Positions 4,772-10,006 of a DNA stretch of 64,000 nucleotides are shown here, piece by piece. Both the position numbers and the translations under genes were made by a program. The number at the start of each line of letters is the position of its first letter. The stretch's first letter is position 1. The DNA is taken from NCBI GenBank assembly GCA_046538415.1, contig JBKHIY010000002.1, positions 1,411 through 65,410 on the forward strand, given 5' to 3'. Source of the DNA: Candidatus Brocadiia bacterium. Lineage in GTDB: Bacteria; Planctomycetota; PUPC01; DSUN01. The notes under the pieces were generated by a model. It did no database searches and had not been told where the DNA came from. It saw nothing but the letters and a program-made list of their open reading frames with translations.

Positions 4772-4939
4772 TCAGCTCGTGCCCTGTCCCTGCCGCAGGT
4801 CGTGGAGCTGGGCGGCGAGGGCCGCGACCTCGTGGTTCAGGTCGGCGCAGGTCTCGTGGATCTGGCGATAGACCTGGAAGGCGCGGTCGTAGAGCTTCTG
4901 GCTGGGAGGCCTGGGCTCGGAGGACTCCCTGGGCCGCAC
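4772..4939 (-). pseudogene. Orphan 3'-terminal fragment of an FGGY carbohydrate kinase gene (paralogous copy of 8459-8620)
   Basis: Encodes '...RESSEPRPPSQKLYDRAFQVYRQIHETCADLNHEVAALAAQLHDLRQGQGTS*'. The intact kinase ends '...RESFEPRPPSRKLYDRAFQVYRQIYETCAQLNHDVAALAAELHDLRHDPT*'. No kinase N-terminal sequence lies upstream. The rest of track ORF 4772..5290 overlaps the lipoprotein gene out of frame. Confidence 0.8.
4791..4939 (-). repeat. Direct repeat copy A (149 bp), about 93% identical to 8472-8620
   Basis: Hand alignment gives 139/149 identical positions with no indels, in the same orientation. Confidence 0.85.
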
Positions 4940-4955
4940 CAGGTAGCCCGGGGCC

Positions 4956-5687
4956 TCATCGCTTGTCTCCGTTCTCCTTCTTGGCGTCTGGAGCTGGCCT
5001 GTCGTCGCCGGCGATGTCGAGGGTCGTCCAGCCGGCGAGGAAGTCGAGAAGCTGGCCTGGGCTGAAGCCCACTCGGAGGCTCGCGAGTGCCGAGCCGCCG
5101 ACCTCGAGGTCGAAGGCGTGGACCGGCTCGGCACATCCCAATGCCTTCTCCCGCCATCGCGCGGCCCCCTCCGACCATGGCCACGGCGAGCCCAGCGGCC
5201 CCAGATTAACCCCCAGGAAACTCGCGAGAGCCTGTTCGTCCTCGCCGCTTTCCATCGTGCTGTAGTCTCCCGCGAGCAGAAATAGCCCAAGAGGGAGGAA
5301 CACCCTGGGGTTCATCGCTCCCTCGCGTGCAAACAGGAAACATGGGGTCAGAACGATGCCCAATGCCGTGGTGACGGGCGGCCCCACGTGGTGCCATCGG
5401 CTGCTTGTCCAAGGGCCCCTTCCTCGTTTCACGAACTGCCTGCCGGTGACGGCCCCGGCTCCTACCGTGAGGAACTGCGTGGCGCGAATCTGAACGTCTG
5501 CTCCGAGGCCGTAGCCTGCGTGCACGTGGCGGCAATCGACGAGGTCGAGGCCGCGGTTCCTTACGTACGACCCGGCCCGTCCCGCGGTGCGGGTACACCC
5601 CGACGCCACGACCGAGAGGACGAGGGCCAGTGGCCCCAGCGTCCGCAGGCTGCCCCGAGGCCGAAGTGTGTCCCGGGCGATGTGCAC
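4956..5687 (-). CDS. Lipoprotein of unknown function (candidate sigma54-dependent target)
   Basis: GTG at 5687 preceded by AGGGAGA. Signal peptide with lipobox 'LGPLALVLSVVASGC'. No recognisable family motif. The track start at 5762 would sit at the predicted transcription start. Confidence 0.6.
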   Translation of the reverse strand: MHIARDTLRPRGSLRTLGPLALVLSVVASGCTRTAGRAGSYVRNRGLDLVDCRHVHAGYGLGADVQIRATQFLTVGAGAVTGRQFVKRGRGPWTSSRWHHVGPPVTTALGIVLTPCFLFAREGAMNPRVFLPLGLFLLAGDYSTMESGEDEQALASFLGVNLGPLGSPWPWSEGAARWREKALGCAEPVHAFDLEVGGSALASLRVGFSPGQLLDFLAGWTTLDIAGDDRPAPDAKKENGDKR

Positions 5688-5770
5688 TGCTCGTCTCCCT
5701 TGCTCCCTATGGCCTTCCGCTGCCGGCTTCCGCCACTTGGTGTGGGGCAGCCGCTCCGCCATGCGTTAAG

Positions 5771-8276: not shown

Positions 8277-8413
8277 GCCACCGAGGCGCCTTGCCAGTCG
8301 GGTGCGATCTGGATGGTGTGCCCGCAGTGCGGGCACGCCGCCTCGCGCGGGCCGAATCGTTCCGTCCTGTCGGTGTCGCCGGACCCTGGCCGACGCTCTC
8401 TGCCGTGTTTCAT
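8213..8413 (-). other. Out-of-frame N-terminal Zn-ribbon segment of the activator gene, with the frameshift at a G6 run
   Basis: ATG 8413 follows GGGAGGG and encodes 'CPHCGHTIQIAPDWQGASVACPRCG'. At the G6 run (C6 on the plus strand, 8213-8218) adding one G converts CCT GGG GGG ATC TGC into CCT GGG GGG GAT CTG CTG. This fuses the Zn ribbon in frame to '...DLLLGAELGGCRIFERIGQG...'. Confidence 0.65.
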
Positions 8414-8458
8414 GGTCCTGCCCTCCCGGCCCCAGGTCGGGCCGCATTCTGGCGCGGC

Positions 8459-10006
8459 TCAGGTCGGGTCGTGCCGCAGGTCGTGGAGCTCGGCGGCGAG
8501 GGCCGCGACATCGTGGTTCAGCTGGGCGCAGGTCTCGTAGATCTGGCGATAGACCTGGAAGGCGCGGTCGTAGAGCTTCCGGCTGGGGGGACGGGGCTCG
8601 AAGGACTCCCTGGGCCGCACGAGCTGCTCGACCGCCTGGCCCAGCGAGGGCCATACGCCCACCGCGGTGCCCGCCAGCATGGCCACGCCCAGGCATCCCG
8701 CCTCGGCGACGTCGAGCGCGTCGACGGGCAGGCCGGTCACGTCGGCCTTGGTCTGGTTCCAGCGGTCGGAGCGGGAGCCGCCGCCGATGGCGTTCAGTCG
8801 CTCCACCGGGAGGCCCCCGGAGCGCACGGACTCGAGGTTCACACGCATCTCATAGCCTACGCCGTCGAGGATCGCCCGCGTGATGTCCGCGGGGGTGCTG
8901 TTGAGGGTGAGCCCCACCAGCAGCCCCCGGGAATCGGAATCGAGGTAGGGGGTGCCGCTGCCCGAGAAGTGGGGGAGCAGGAAGAGGTCGGTGGGGCCGT
9001 CGGGCGCCTTCTCGATGAGCACATCGTAGGGGTCGCGCCCGCTTCGCTCGGCCTCCGCCCGAGTCTCTGCGCCGAAGTGGTCGCGGAACCAGCGGAGGAT
9101 GCTCCCCGCCGAGTAGACGAACGCCAGGGAGACGTAGCGGTCGGCCACCACGTGGGGGTAGACGCAGTGGTTGGCCGCGAGCATGGCGTCGGTGAGCACC
9201 GGCTCGTCCATGGCGATGGTCATGCACTCCACGGTGCCCGTGGTATCGGTGCTCACCCCCGGGTCCACCACGCCGGCGCCCAGGGCGCAGGCGGGCTGGT
9301 CGTGGCCGCCGGCCACCACCGCGACGCCCGGGGGCAGGCCGAGCGACTCCGCGGCCTTGGTCCCCAGCTCGCCCACCACCTGGCCCGAGGGGCAGGGGGT
9401 GGCGAAGATCTCCGGCTCGAGCCCCGCGGCCTCCAGGACCGGCTGGGCGAAGTCCCTGGTGCGCACGTCCAGCGCCAGGGTACGGCCGATCAGCGAATGG
9501 TCGATGGTCGGCTCCAGGCCCAGCCTGGCGAAGAAGTAGTCCTCCCAGAGGAGAAACTTCCACGTCTGCCTGTAGACTTCCGGCTCGTGCTCCCGCAGCC
9601 ACATGATCTTGTTCACCGTGTAGCTGGAGTGCTGGGGCATGCCGGTGAGCTGGAAGATCTCCTTGCGGCCCAGTTCCTCCTCCAAGGCCAGGGCTTGGGC
9701 GTGGGAGCGGGCGTCGAAGGAGAGGATGGTGTTGTAGAGCGGCTCGCGGTCCTTGCCCACGGGGAGAAACGATTCGCCGAAGACCGACACGCTGAGGGCC
9801 TTCACAGGGTCGCTGGCCTCCCGCGCGGCTTCGCCCACCACCCGCTGGACCGCCGACCACACGGCCTGGTTGTCCAGCTCCGCCCAGCCGGGCCGGGGGA
9901 AGAGCAGGGGATACTCCTGGTAGGCCGAGGCGAGCACCTGCCCGTCGGGAGCGAAGACCACGGCCTTCGTGCCCGTCGTTCCGATGTCCAGTCCCAGAAT
10001 GCTCAT
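8459..10006 (-). CDS. FGGY-family carbohydrate kinase (xylulokinase-like)
   Basis: ATG 10006 follows GGAGAGG. 'MSILGLDIGTTGTKAVVF' is the FGGY N-terminal phosphate-binding motif, and 'GGHDQPCA' and 'AIGGGSRSD' are also present. The track start at 10138 is over-extended. Confidence 0.85.
   Translation of the reverse strand: MSILGLDIGTTGTKAVVFAPDGQVLASAYQEYPLLFPRPGWAELDNQAVWSAVQRVVGEAAREASDPVKALSVSVFGESFLPVGKDREPLYNTILSFDARSHAQALALEEELGRKEIFQLTGMPQHSSYTVNKIMWLREHEPEVYRQTWKFLLWEDYFFARLGLEPTIDHSLIGRTLALDVRTRDFAQPVLEAAGLEPEIFATPCPSGQVVGELGTKAAESLGLPPGVAVVAGGHDQPACALGAGVVDPGVSTDTTGTVECMTIAMDEPVLTDAMLAANHCVYPHVVADRYVSLAFVYSAGSILRWFRDHFGAETRAEAERSGRDPYDVLIEKAPDGPTDLFLLPHFSGSGTPYLDSDSRGLLVGLTLNSTPADITRAILDGVGYEMRVNLESVRSGGLPVERLNAIGGGSRSDRWNQTKADVTGLPVDALDVAEAGCLGVAMLAGTAVGVWPSLGQAVEQLVRPRESFEPRPPSRKLYDRAFQVYRQIYETCAQLNHDVAALAAELHDLRHDPT
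8472..8620 (-). repeat. Direct repeat copy B (149 bp), the authentic 3' end of the FGGY kinase
   Basis: Pairs with 4791-4939; 139/149 identical by hand alignment. Confidence 0.85.

What the first reader, a model, noticed from the sequence alone, without database searches (positions are those of the whole stretch)
4772..8620. About 3.5 kb regulator + lipoprotein segment bracketed by 149-bp direct repeats of the FGGY-kinase 3' end
Seen in sequence:
- 4791-4939 and 8472-8620 align without gaps, 139/149 identical by hand count, in the same orientation.
- Copy B is the genuine C-terminal coding end of the intact kinase (8459-10006).
- Copy A is an orphan fragment that still keeps the kinase reading frame and its own diverged stop at 4772.
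- Only three things lie between the copies: the Zn-ribbon/dead-kinase/sigma54-activator gene, a sigma54 promoter and one lipoprotein gene. The lipoprotein stop (4956) is 17 nt from the edge of copy A.
- Spot counts of single 60-nt lines inside the segment give 34/60 G+C (5281-5340) and 36/60 (7561-7620), against 46/60 at 10801-10860. The insert therefore looks compositionally lighter.

Inference: a self-contained activator-promoter-target module was inserted into the 3' end of the kinase gene, and the duplication regenerated an intact kinase C-terminus. This is the footprint left by site-specific integration into gene 3' ends. No integrase, transposase or terminal inverted repeats are present, so the mechanism is unexplained.
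Basis: partly seen in the sequence, partly recalled or inferred. Interest (0 to 1): 0.72.

Follow-up and report, generated by a model that had tools for sequence, protein, structure and literature searches.

The report
Regulator cassette bracketed by duplicated kinase end
A partly decayed regulator-plus-lipoprotein cassette sits directly behind a sugar-kinase gene of a planctomycete, flanked by two copies of the kinase's last ~150 bases; this is a real insertion footprint at a site where related genomes carry other cargo or none, but no integrase is present and the structure is an ordinary kind of genome-plasticity scar rather than a new system.

Summary
4791-4942 and 8472-8623 are a two-copy, same-orientation repeat (139/149, 141/152 identical). 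It is the best repeat in the window. Copy B is the end of an intact FGGY kinase. Copy A is an in-frame orphan with its own stop, next to Dabb.

About 30 related Planctomycetota loci (kinase 74-78% identical; nothing closer exists) show that the site between the kinase and Dabb/GcpE varies. At least 8 loci are empty (kinase-Dabb-GcpE). Others hold a glycosidase, an FMN reductase, toxin-antitoxin genes or the regulator.

Two findings change the reading:
- L025/L027 independently carry a toxin-antitoxin pair bracketed by a 118-nt kinase-end duplication (88%), again without an integrase.
- L018 has the same tight kinase-to-regulator junction but no orphan.

The cargo is a conserved sigma54 activator-promoter-target module; three homologous loci have perfect -24/-12 promoters. 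Here it is decayed: frameshifted Zn ribbon, kinase core deleted, mismatched -12, targets trimmed. Cargo GC3 is low (regulator z=-2.6, lipoprotein z=-7.2).

My best reading (0.42) is homology-driven import of a kinase-linked cassette from a related genome, which displaced the resident kinase end. Site-specific integration is not excluded. This is a new member of a known kind, of moderate interest.

The parts
8459..10006 (-). Intact FGGY-family carbohydrate kinase (515 aa)
   Evidence: Pfam FGGY_N 2e-56 and FGGY_C 9e-34. It is 74-78% identical to orthologues in about 30 Planctomycetota loci. GC3 is 0.938, typical of the genome.
8472..8623 (-). Repeat copy B: the 3' coding end attached to the intact kinase. 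The tail 8459-8471 differs from copy A.
   Evidence: The tail and stop region resembles L004's terminus (16/17, p~0.04).
8255..8413 (-). Zn-ribbon remnant (two CPxCG motifs). This is the former N-terminus of the regulator, now out of frame with it. Its ATG lies 45 nt after the kinase stop.
   Evidence: Frame analysis. Weak Zn_ribbon Pfam hits. Homologues P0004, P0005, P0008, P0009 and L018 carry it in frame.
5955..8276 (-). Sigma54-dependent activator (773 aa as annotated in the source MAG). It has only the C-lobe of the protein kinase domain, a conserved middle region, an AAA+ sigma54-interaction domain (GAFTGA and Walker A present) and a C-terminal helix-rich region.
   Evidence: Pfam Sigma54_activat 3.5e-61, AAA_lid_14, and Pkinase profile positions 157-253 only. 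The exact protein is P0001. The alignment shows about 130 aa missing between VAIKV and GTAAYMSPE. GC3 is 0.872.
5930..5954 (-). Conserved motif just after the regulator stop (GCCAATTCCTGCC). It is a candidate activator-binding site.
   Evidence: A similar GCAAyTCCTGCGG follows the stop in L019, L020 and L021. The function is inferred only.
5772..5786 (-). Sigma54 -24/-12-like promoter TGGCACGGTTTTCGC (-12 is TCGC instead of TTGC), about 85 nt upstream of the lipoprotein start.
   Evidence: alone it is not above chance (5 matches vs 3.5 expected). Perfect TGGCAC-N5-TTGC elements sit at the equivalent position after the regulator homologues in L019, L020 and L021.
4956..5687 (-). Lipoprotein gene (243 aa, GTG start, lipobox VASGC). 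It is the only remaining target gene of the module.
   Evidence: Translation. No Pfam hit. Homologues are P0121/L063 at full length, the L021 146-aa ORF downstream of a regulator homologue, and the L020 139-aa ORF. GC3 is 0.779, z=-7.2.
4772..4942 (-). Repeat copy A: orphan kinase 3' end (56 codons plus its own stop at 4772-4774). It is the displaced kinase terminus.
   Evidence: GC3 in the kinase frame is 0.93. The tail and post-stop bases GAGCTGACGGCCC match L018's kinase terminus 12/13.
4740..4753 (.). Palindrome GGCCCTCGAGGGCC between the orphan stop and the convergent Dabb stop. It is probably the original bidirectional terminator region.
   Evidence: Sequence. The simple terminator scan did not call it, so the function is inferred.
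4321..4725 (+). Dabb (stress-responsive A/B barrel) gene, convergent. It is the ancestral downstream neighbour of the kinase.
   Evidence: Pfam Dabb 7e-34. It is adjacent to the kinase in L004, L023/L065-67, L024, L032, L033, L035 and L070.
3212..4294 (+). GcpE/IspG, part of the conserved backbone (GcpE, ThyA-like, HEAT, FHA-AAA).
   Evidence: Pfam GcpE 5e-136. Synteny appears.

Best explanation
The site between this FGGY kinase gene and its convergent neighbours (Dabb, GcpE) varies across a clade of Planctomycetota.

In the window's lineage, a kinase-linked accessory cassette was imported into a genome with the common 'empty' arrangement (kinase-Dabb-GcpE). The cassette consists of the kinase 3' end, the sigma54 activator, the sigma54 promoter and the lipoprotein.

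The import used kinase homology on one side. It was either a single crossover with a circularised fragment (Campbell-type) or a homologous crossover in the kinase plus an illegitimate join about 170 nt before the resident stop (homology-facilitated illegitimate recombination). The likely donor was a related genome in which the regulator already followed the kinase, as it does in L018.

The result is an intact kinase ending in copy B. The resident kinase end was pushed 3.7 kb downstream as orphan copy A, still with its own stop next to Dabb. No element-encoded recombinase is involved.

The cassette has since decayed. The Zn ribbon is frameshifted, the kinase catalytic core is deleted, the -12 element is mutated and the co-target genes are lost. 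What remains is at most a sensor-less activator plus one lipoprotein gene.

Recombination between the two direct repeats would delete the cassette precisely and restore the empty arrangement.

Shown: the repeat, the orphan's authenticity, the empty sites, the hot spot, the second independent case, the shared kinase-regulator junction, module conservation and decay, and the absence of an integrase. Inferred: the direction of the event (gain), the related-genome donor, and RecA-type rather than site-specific recombination.
For: 1. The repeat is real, has two copies and is the best repeat in the window.
2. Empty sites kinase-Dabb-GcpE or kinase-GcpE occur in most relatives. The same slot holds unrelated cargo elsewhere: a rhamnosidase-like gene (L001/L003), PIN plus a 433-aa gene (L007), an FMN reductase (L071), an unknown gene (L062) and the regulator (L018).
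3. Copy A sits 46 nt from the Dabb stop and keeps an authentic kinase tail.
4. L018 has the kinase stop followed after 23 nt by the in-frame Zn-ribbon start of the closest regulator homologue, with no orphan. So a donor-type haplotype exists.
5. An independent case exists in L025/L027, two separate assemblies: kinase, antitoxin, PIN, then a 118-nt orphan (88% identical to its own kinase), with a different inner boundary and no integrase.
6. No integrase or transposase lies within about 10 kb. The cargo is packed to within 45 nt and 13 nt of the repeats, leaving no room for a decayed recombinase.
7. Neither the kinase nor the regulator has relatives on viral contigs.
8. Derived substitutions are roughly symmetric (5 in A, 3 in B). 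This is expected if both ends evolved as working gene ends in separate lineages before being joined.
9. Homology-facilitated illegitimate recombination is an experimentally documented route for one-sided-homology insertion (PMC3240628).
Against: - No donor or closely related genome is available, so the direction of the event (gain vs loss) and the donor are inferred.
- The window's kinase branches at the base of the clade and L018 nearby. The kinase-regulator arrangement could therefore be ancestral rather than imported.
- Two independent events that both land in the last 120-170 nt of the same gene and both re-supply its end are what a dedicated site-specific system would give. Chance plus selection must explain this under the recombination model.
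- The weak tail similarities run opposite to the simplest expectation: A resembles L018, the regulator-bearing type, and B resembles L004, the empty type.
- The symmetric-divergence argument rests on only 8 polarised sites.
- Low cargo GC3 is also seen for these gene families in other genomes, so it does not date the event.
Confidence: 0.42

Rival explanations
1. This is site-specific integration of the e14/phage 21-icd type. An integrative element whose attP mimics the kinase 3' end inserted by a tyrosine or serine recombinase. That recombinase is now lost, or acts in trans from elsewhere in the genome, leaving an att-flanked, recombinase-less remnant similar to a cis-mobilisable element.
For: - The architecture matches icd / e14 / icdC: an intact gene with a substitute end, cargo, and a displaced orphan end (PMC13626634).
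- It recurs at the same gene end with different cargo, including toxin-antitoxin genes typical of mobile elements.
- The cargo has low GC3 in both cases.
- Only 64 kb of this genome could be inspected, so a trans-acting recombinase cannot be excluded.
Against: - No integrase was found in the window's +/-10 kb, in L025/L027 or in about 30 related loci at this site.
- There is no room for a decayed integrase. The cargo abuts the repeats within 45 and 13 nt.
- Repeat length and inner boundary differ between the two cases (152 vs 118 nt).
- The other cargos at the hot spot have no orphans.
- There are no viral or proviral relatives.
- The kinase-regulator junction exists without an orphan in L018.
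Confidence: 0.25
2. The arrangement is ancient. Kinase-regulator-lipoprotein-orphan-Dabb was already present in the clade's ancestor. The two repeats stay 93% alike through gene conversion. The empty sites in other lineages arose by recombination between the repeats, and L018 arose by a larger deletion.
For: - The window branches basally in the kinase tree (69/100 bootstraps), with L018 near the base.
- The kinase-regulator junction is shared with L018.
- Repeat-mediated deletion would yield kinase-Dabb exactly.
- The A/B differences are interleaved with no clean crossover point.
- The cassette is visibly old and decaying.
Against: - It requires long-term maintenance of a 152-nt non-functional orphan at 93% identity while orthologous kinase ends diverged to 64-78%.
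- The repeat boundaries are sharp, with unrelated tails (p=0.69).
- Many independent losses would be needed.
- The L025 case shows that such duplications arise de novo with other cargo.
Confidence: 0.13
3. The orphan is the remnant of a second, full-length kinase copy. A block of kinase', regulator and lipoprotein was placed upstream of the resident kinase, or the region was duplicated. The redundant resident kinase was then deleted except for its last 171 nt.
For: - The orphan is a complete authentic gene end with coding-type GC3 of 0.93.
- Deletion scars are plentiful in this locus: the kinase core deletion in the regulator, the trimmed target operon, and a gene fragment in L018.
Against: - It needs an extra precise deletion running from 13 nt after the lipoprotein stop into the kinase. 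The same two-step history would be needed again in L025/L027.
- No intermediate with two full kinases was seen in about 30 loci.
Confidence: 0.1
4. This is an assembly artefact: a chimeric or mis-joined MAG contig that merges two strain haplotypes at the shared kinase end.
For: The source is a metagenome-assembled genome ('Candidatus Brocadiia bacterium', 130-kb contig). Reads could not be mapped. A 93% repeat could reflect two co-existing strains.
Against: - The lipoprotein|copy A junction (4943-4955) has no shared sequence that could mislead an assembler. It must exist in real DNA.
- The longest exact run (40 nt) is shorter than common assembly k-mers.
- Gene order on both sides matches the conserved backbone.
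- The same architecture was assembled independently twice in another lineage, L025 and L027.
Confidence: 0.05

Closest known systems
e14 / phage 21 integration into the 3' end of icd in Escherichia coli, leaving the icdC orphan (Hill et al. 1989; discussed in PMC13626634)
   Same: The intact gene ends in a substitute 3' segment. The cargo follows. The original 3' end survives as an in-frame orphan fragment at the far end, similar but not identical to the working copy. Recombination between the two copies removes the insert and makes a chimeric but functional gene end.
   Different: e14 is a 15-kb prophage with its own integrase and SOS-induced excision. Here the insert is 3.5 kb, has no recombinase or phage genes, and leaves no space for a decayed one. 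The cargo is a regulatory module.
Cis-mobilisable elements (CIMEs) and decayed islands flanked by att repeats, e.g. ICESt1/ICESt3-related elements at the 3' end of fda in Streptococcus thermophilus (from my own knowledge, not checked here)
   Same: The cargo is bracketed by direct repeats derived from a protein-coding gene's 3' end and lacks its own recombination genes.
   Different: CIMEs have short att repeats of about 27 bp, and cognate ICEs with integrases occupy the same site in related strains. No such integrase-bearing element was seen at this site in about 30 loci. The repeats here are 118-152 nt.
Homology-facilitated illegitimate recombination and Campbell-type single-crossover integration (PMC3240628)
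   Same: Foreign DNA is inserted using homology on one side only. No element-encoded enzyme is needed. These routes can leave a duplication of the anchor region flanking the insert. The donor arrangement (regulator right after the kinase) exists in a relative.
   Different: These routes are known mainly from laboratory transformation or conjugation experiments. Natural examples with a neatly regenerated gene end are rarely documented. The illegitimate junction cannot be examined here without the donor.
Bacterial enhancer-binding-protein modules (NtrC-family activator plus a sigma54 promoter plus an adjacent target)
   Same: The AAA+ sigma54-interaction domain has GAFTGA. A -24/-12 element lies between the activator and the downstream target. 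The layout is conserved in L019, L020 and L021.
   Different: The sensory part in this family is a Zn ribbon plus a Ser/Thr protein kinase domain rather than a receiver, GAF or PAS domain. In the window that part is broken.

Membership tests
Integrase-mediated island or prophage in a gene 3' end (e14/icd type) | Direct repeats made of the target gene's 3' end flank the insert. The intact gene carries one copy and an orphan lies at the far end. | tested here: met
   4791-4942 vs 8472-8623 at 93% identity. The orphan is in frame with its own stop.
Integrase-mediated island or prophage in a gene 3' end (e14/icd type) | A tyrosine or serine recombinase gene lies inside the element, next to an att site. 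| tested here: not met
   Pfam scans of every gene between the repeats and within about 10 kb either side show none. None is present in L025/L027 either. The cargo abuts the repeats.
Integrase-mediated island or prophage in a gene 3' end (e14/icd type) | Related genomes have an unoccupied site. | tested here: met
   Kinase-Dabb-GcpE is found in L004, L023/L065-67, L024, L032, L033, L035 and L070. Kinase-GcpE is found in L006, L030 and L068/69. This holds only at 74-78% kinase identity; no species-level relatives exist.
Integrase-mediated island or prophage in a gene 3' end (e14/icd type) | There is a fixed crossover core, and excision gives a circle plus an empty site. | not testable with these tools
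   This needs reads or an experiment. The two natural cases have different repeat extents (152 vs 118 nt), which argues against one fixed att.
Cis-mobilisable element (att-flanked, recombinase-less, mobilised in trans) | A cognate integrase-bearing element uses the same site in related genomes. | tested here: not met
   None of about 30 related loci has an integrase at this junction. There are no viral-contig relatives.
Transposon / insertion sequence | It has a transposase, terminal inverted repeats and a short target-site duplication. | tested here: not met
   There is no transposase and no inverted repeat pairing the segment's ends. The 152-nt duplication is far longer than any known target-site duplication.
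Homology-driven insertion (Campbell-type or homology-facilitated illegitimate recombination) | One junction is a native, homologous context that exists in a potential donor lineage. | tested here: met
   The kinase stop is followed by the regulator's Zn-ribbon start at 23 nt in L018 and 45 nt in the window. Both use the closest regulator homologue.
Homology-driven insertion (Campbell-type or homology-facilitated illegitimate recombination) | The other junction is illegitimate (microhomology only), and the donor is identifiable. | not testable with these tools
   No donor or close relative exists in any collection searched.
Sigma54 enhancer-binding-protein module | It has an AAA+ sigma54-interaction domain with Walker A and GAFTGA. 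| tested here: met
   Pfam Sigma54_activat 3.5e-61. GESGTGKS and GAFTGA are visible in the translation and invariant in the alignment.
Sigma54 enhancer-binding-protein module | A -24/-12 promoter (TGGCAC-N5-TTGC) lies upstream of the adjacent target. | tested here: inconclusive
   The window has TGGCACGGTTTTCGC with one mismatch in the -12, which alone is not above chance. Perfect elements sit at the equivalent place in L019, L020 and L021. Activity was not tested, and rpoN was not sought.
Hanks-type Ser/Thr protein kinase (sensor part of the regulator) | The catalytic core (HRD catalytic loop, DFG) is present. | tested here: not met
   About 130 aa between VAIK and the P+1/APE region are absent, while homologues have HRDIKPSN and DFGLA. 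Pfam matches only profile positions 157-253.
FGGY carbohydrate kinase (the host gene) | FGGY_N and FGGY_C domains are present, full length, in a conserved orthologue group. | tested here: met
   The substrate is not determined; some sources label relatives 'xylulokinase'.

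The most novel reading that the evidence does not exclude
Planctomycetota of this clade may have a recurrent, integrase-free way of loading small cassettes (regulatory modules, toxin-antitoxin pairs) into the 3' end of one particular housekeeping gene. Each cassette would travel with a 120-150-nt copy of the gene's end. That copy would serve both as the homology handle for insertion and as the replacement terminus, so cassettes could be gained, swapped and cleanly lost by host recombination alone. Alternatively, an unrecognised trans-acting recombinase could do this.
Probability: 0.12. Interest if true: 0.7.

Novelty: new member of a known kind. Interest (0 to 1): 0.38.

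Why it matters
This is a clean natural example of how an accessory regulatory cassette can be placed behind a housekeeping gene without breaking it, and of how it could be removed again by recombination between the flanking repeats. It comes from a poorly studied phylum.

The second, independent case with toxin-antitoxin cargo marks the kinase|Dabb/GcpE junction as a genuine hot spot. It also shows that orphan gene ends can mark past insertions even where no integrase is present. That is useful for annotating islets in metagenome-assembled genomes.

The work also documents a family of sigma54 activators in Planctomycetota that are fused to a Zn ribbon and a Ser/Thr kinase domain and that have a conserved promoter and small envelope-protein targets. 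The copy here shows how such a regulator decays. None of this overturns current understanding.

Tried and rejected
- **Exact-protein look-ups** of the kinase and regulator for the source contig found no record.
- **Closer relatives.** Scans of GTDB genomes, JGI metagenomes and the 5.8-billion-protein collection found nothing closer than 78% kinase identity. A same-species empty site could not be tested.
- **Other orphans.** I searched every related locus for degenerate orphan copies of its own kinase end. Only L025/L027 have one. L007 shares the PIN cargo but has no orphan.
- **Repeats around other regulator modules.** L019, L020, L021 and L018 have no direct repeats bracketing their modules. 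L021 has an unrelated 94-nt pair.
- **Residual homology beyond the repeat.** A vs B shows none (p=0.69). The tail similarities to L018 and L004 are only marginal and were not corrected for multiple tests.
- **P0136 and P0121.** I suspected they shared one 2,260-bp contig, which would have placed the kinase directly before a lipoprotein homologue. They are different contigs of the same length.
- **Other scans.** Rfam, tRNA, sigma70-promoter/terminator and plasmid-similarity scans of the segment found nothing relevant. Viral-contig scans with the kinase and the regulator found nothing.
- **Tandem duplication of [kinase end-regulator-lipoprotein] followed by deletion.** Rejected. It needs two further precise deletions and does not explain the different tails.
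- **Low GC3 as proof of recent transfer.** Rejected. The same gene families have low GC3 in L018 and L021.

Full report
**1. Observation**

The repeat is real. At a constant offset of 3,681 nt, 4791-4939 and 8472-8620 match at 139/149 positions without gaps. The match extends to 4791-4942 / 8472-8623 at 141/152, or 93%. Similarity ends abruptly on both sides.

A 40-nt core is identical in both copies and occurs nowhere else in the 64-kb window, against 0 expected. Every other direct repeat in the window is a 60-82% similarity between paralogous sulfatase genes or with a second sigma54 activator.

Copy B is the end of an intact 515-aa FGGY kinase (8459-10006, minus strand; Pfam FGGY_N and FGGY_C). 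Copy A, read in the kinase frame, gives LVRPRESSEPRPPSQKLYDRAFQVYRQIHETCADLNHEVAALAAQLHDLRQGQGTS*, with its own stop at 4772-4774. The 11 differences comprise seven nucleotide changes that alter six residues, plus four silent changes.

**2. What lies between the copies**

Everything is on the minus strand.

*The regulator.* 45 nt after the kinase stop, an ATG at 8413 opens a double CPxCG Zn ribbon. This reading frame is not the frame of the main regulator ORF (5955-8276, 773 aa). The main ORF is identical to the protein annotated in the source MAG, labelled 'Candidatus Brocadiia bacterium', on a 130-kb contig (P0001).
- It has a strong sigma54-interaction AAA+ domain and lid. Of the protein-kinase domain it retains only profile positions 157-253 of 263.
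- Its closest homologues (57-64% identity, 868-954 aa) carry complete kinase domains, and several have the Zn ribbon in frame.
- Against them the window protein lacks about 130 residues, from just after the VAIK lysine to just before GTxxYMSPE. That removes the HRD and DFG motifs.
- The in-frame deletion cannot be a sequencing error. The frameshift could be one.

*The promoter.* Downstream of the regulator stop lies TGGCACGGTTTTCGC (5772-5786). This is one mismatch from the sigma54 consensus, in the -12 element. It sits about 85 nt before the GTG start of the lipoprotein gene. On its own this match is not above chance.

*The lipoprotein.* The 243-aa gene (4956-5687) has the lipobox VASGC.

*Comparative support for the module.* In L019, L020 and L021 the regulator homologue is followed, about 165 nt after its stop, by a perfect TGGCAC-N5-TTGC. 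A shared GCAAyTCCTGC motif lies just after the stop in all of them and in the window.
- The genes after those promoters encode small membrane or secreted proteins.
- The window's lipoprotein matches the 146-aa ORF of L021 with its N-terminal part and the 139-aa ORF of L020 with its C-terminal part.
- The 181/200/381-aa membrane-protein genes present in those loci are absent from the window.
- A full-length lipoprotein homologue also exists without a regulator nearby (L063).

The window holds a trimmed and partly broken copy of it.

**3. Composition**

| Feature | GC3 | z vs background |
|---|---|---|
| 33 background genes | 0.925 +/- 0.020 (minimum 0.878) | - |
| Kinase | 0.938 | +0.7 |
| Copy A | 0.930 | +0.3 |
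| Copy B | 0.927 | +0.1 |
| Regulator | 0.872 (about 0.85 in its N-terminal and middle parts) | -2.6 |
| Lipoprotein | 0.779 | -7.2 |

The segment as a whole (GC 0.685) is in the lowest 2.5% of 3.5-kb windows.

However, the same families also have lower GC3 than their neighbours in other genomes. In L018 the regulator is 0.838 against 0.913 for the kinase. In L021 the lipoprotein-like gene is 0.796. The dip marks accessory or relaxed genes. It does not date a transfer.

**4. Related loci**

Scans of species-representative genomes and of metagenome contigs with the kinase, plus a search of 5.8 billion proteins, found about 30 loci from Planctomycetota with kinases 74-78% identical. Nothing closer exists.

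The backbone is RNase III - kinase - (Dabb) - GcpE - ThyA-like - HEAT - FHA/AAA, and it is strongly conserved. The window shares the GcpE side of it.

| What follows the kinase | Loci |
|---|---|
| Dabb, then GcpE (30-200 nt between convergent stops) | L004, L023/L065-67, L024, L032, L033, L035, L070 |
| GcpE directly | L006, L030, L068/69 |
| About 720 bp, then GcpE | L005 |
| Rhamnosidase-like gene, then Dabb | L001/L034, L003/L028 |
| PIN toxin plus a 433-aa gene, then Dabb | L007 |
| Flavodoxin-like FMN reductase, then GcpE | L071 |
| Unknown gene | L062 |
| The regulator, then GcpE | L018 |

**5. Two results that reshape the interpretation**

*First, L018.* It carries the closest full-length regulator homologue directly after its kinase. 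The stop is followed after 23 nt by the in-frame Zn-ribbon start. L018 has no lipoprotein, no Dabb and no orphan. The kinase-to-regulator junction is therefore shared and older than the 7% divergence between the window's repeats. In a neighbour-joining kinase tree the window branches at the base of the clade (69/100 bootstraps), with L018 nearby.

*Second, L025 and L027.* These are two independent assemblies of one lineage. They show the same architecture with different cargo: kinase, a 68-aa antitoxin-like gene, a PIN toxin, then an orphan kinase end of 118 nt with its own stop (HQKLCDRAFGLYRRIYQSCCDLNHAIAAFASELHEIRRS*), followed by a ParE-type pair and a GlpD-like gene.
- The orphan is 88.1% identical to its own kinase end. 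That is about the divergence between sister species' kinases in that cluster, 86-90%.
- The inner boundary of the duplication differs from the window's, and again there is no integrase.
- No other locus has an orphan.

**6. Nature of the two copies**

Copies A and B are far closer to each other (92.8%) than either is to any orthologue (at most 77.6%). Beyond the repeat the two tails are unrelated (p=0.69).

Each tail resembles an authentic terminus of some orthologue, aligned at the stop codon:
- A with L018: GAGCTGACGGCCC vs GAGCTAACGGCCC, 12/13, p about 0.02.
- B with L004: 16/17, p about 0.04.

These are weak, uncorrected signals. They do support copy A being a complete former gene end rather than an arbitrary internal fragment.

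Using 19 orthologues as outgroup, five differences are derived in A, three in B and three cannot be polarised. They are interleaved along the repeat. If A had been a dead copy of B from the start, an excess of changes in A would be expected. The data are too few to decide.

**7. Mechanism**

A self-mobile element is unlikely.
- There is no recombinase or transposase in the segment, within about 10 kb, in L025/L027, or at this site in any related locus.
- There are no terminal inverted repeats.
- Neither the kinase nor the regulator has relatives on viral contigs.
- The cargo is packed to within 45 and 13 nt of the repeats, so a decayed integrase has nowhere to hide.

The architecture is the one known from e14 in icd of E. 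coli, where the displaced gene end survives as icdC and recombination between the copies removes the insert (PMC13626634).

The simplest way to obtain it without an integrase is recombination that uses kinase homology on one side. That could be a single crossover with a circular fragment. It could also be a homologous crossover in the kinase plus an illegitimate join in the resident gene's last about 170 nt, which is homology-facilitated illegitimate recombination (PMC3240628). In either case the donor would be a related genome of the L018 type, in which the cassette already follows the kinase.

I give this reading 0.42. The rivals are:

| Rival | Confidence |
|---|---|
| Site-specific system acting in trans, or lost | 0.25 |
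| Ancient arrangement kept similar by gene conversion, with empty sites arising by repeat-mediated deletion | 0.13 |
| Remnant of a once complete second kinase | 0.10 |
| Assembly artefact | 0.05 |

The artefact is unlikely for two reasons. The lipoprotein|copy A junction shares no sequence with anything that could mislead an assembler. The same architecture was also assembled twice independently elsewhere.

**8. Function of the cargo (inferred)**

The regulator keeps an intact AAA+ domain with Walker A and GAFTGA, and a conserved C-terminal region. It has lost its sensor-kinase part. N-terminal truncation of enhancer-binding proteins often makes them constitutive; this is established knowledge for NtrC-family activators such as DctD and XylR and was not tested here. 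With a weakened -12 element and a single remaining target, the module may drive low-level, unregulated expression of one lipoprotein, or it may be on its way to loss.

**9. Verdict**

The structure is a new example of a known kind of scar, namely an islet with a displaced orphan gene end. Its integrase-free recurrence in a second lineage adds some interest. Interest is 0.38.

The most novel reading not excluded is a host-recombination-based cassette-loading system that uses the gene end as a homology handle. I give it about 0.12.

Noticed in passing
L025 11542-12929 and L027 6480-7870: This is a second, independent case of cargo bracketed by a duplicated FGGY kinase 3' end. The order is kinase, antitoxin-like gene, PIN toxin, a 118-nt orphan kinase end (88% identical to the resident copy), then a ParE-type toxin-antitoxin pair. 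No integrase is present.
   Followed up: yes
L021 2845-2938 and 8587-8680: A 94-nt direct repeat (89%) brackets a 5.7-kb segment (HZS_alpha-like gene, a 701-aa ORF, AhpC) just upstream of the regulator homologue. This is another repeat-bracketed block in this group of organisms.
   Followed up: no
L021 9149-9634 and 10001-12367: The regulator homologue here is also split. The Zn ribbon plus kinase N-lobe lie in one ORF and the rest in another, which suggests repeated decay of the sensor part in this family, or an assembly error.
   Followed up: no
L018 12608-12966 and 14043-15992: The 360 nt after the L018 regulator contain a weak fragment of a B12-binding radical-SAM gene (52% over 27 aa, E=0.01), like the gene downstream of the module in L019. 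A GmrSD-type restriction-like gene is inserted between GcpE and the ThyA-like gene.
   Followed up: partly
window 5930-5954; L019 9523-9545; L020 6318-6340; L021 12368-12390: A shared motif GCAAyTCCTGC(G/C) lies immediately after the stop of the regulator homologues, in some loci with an inverted partner (CAGGAATTGC). It is a candidate upstream activator-binding site for this regulator family.
   Followed up: partly
window 20531-31600, 37169-38614, 58584-60386: There is a cluster of paralogous sulfatase genes whose conserved blocks account for most direct repeats in the window (60-82% identity).
   Followed up: no
window 53156-55039 (-): There is a second sigma54-type activator gene. Its AAA+ core is 78-79% identical at the nucleotide level to 6484-6797 of the cassette's regulator.
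   Followed up: no
L020 7178-8945: The target genes downstream of this regulator homologue are tandem paralogues (about 600-nt units, 61-82% identical) encoding 200- and 381-aa membrane proteins, related to the 181-aa ORF of L021. These genes are missing from the window's module.
   Followed up: partly
window 10230-12887 (+): Upstream of the kinase the window has a divergent 885-aa HEAT-repeat gene instead of the RNase III gene found there in all relatives. Synteny therefore breaks on the kinase's 5' side in this lineage.
   Followed up: no
L068/L069 vs L021/L022: Two metagenome samples each contain both an empty kinase-GcpE locus and, on another contig, the regulator plus lipoprotein-like module in an unrelated context. 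If these belong to one organism, the module's genomic position differs between lineages.
   Followed up: no
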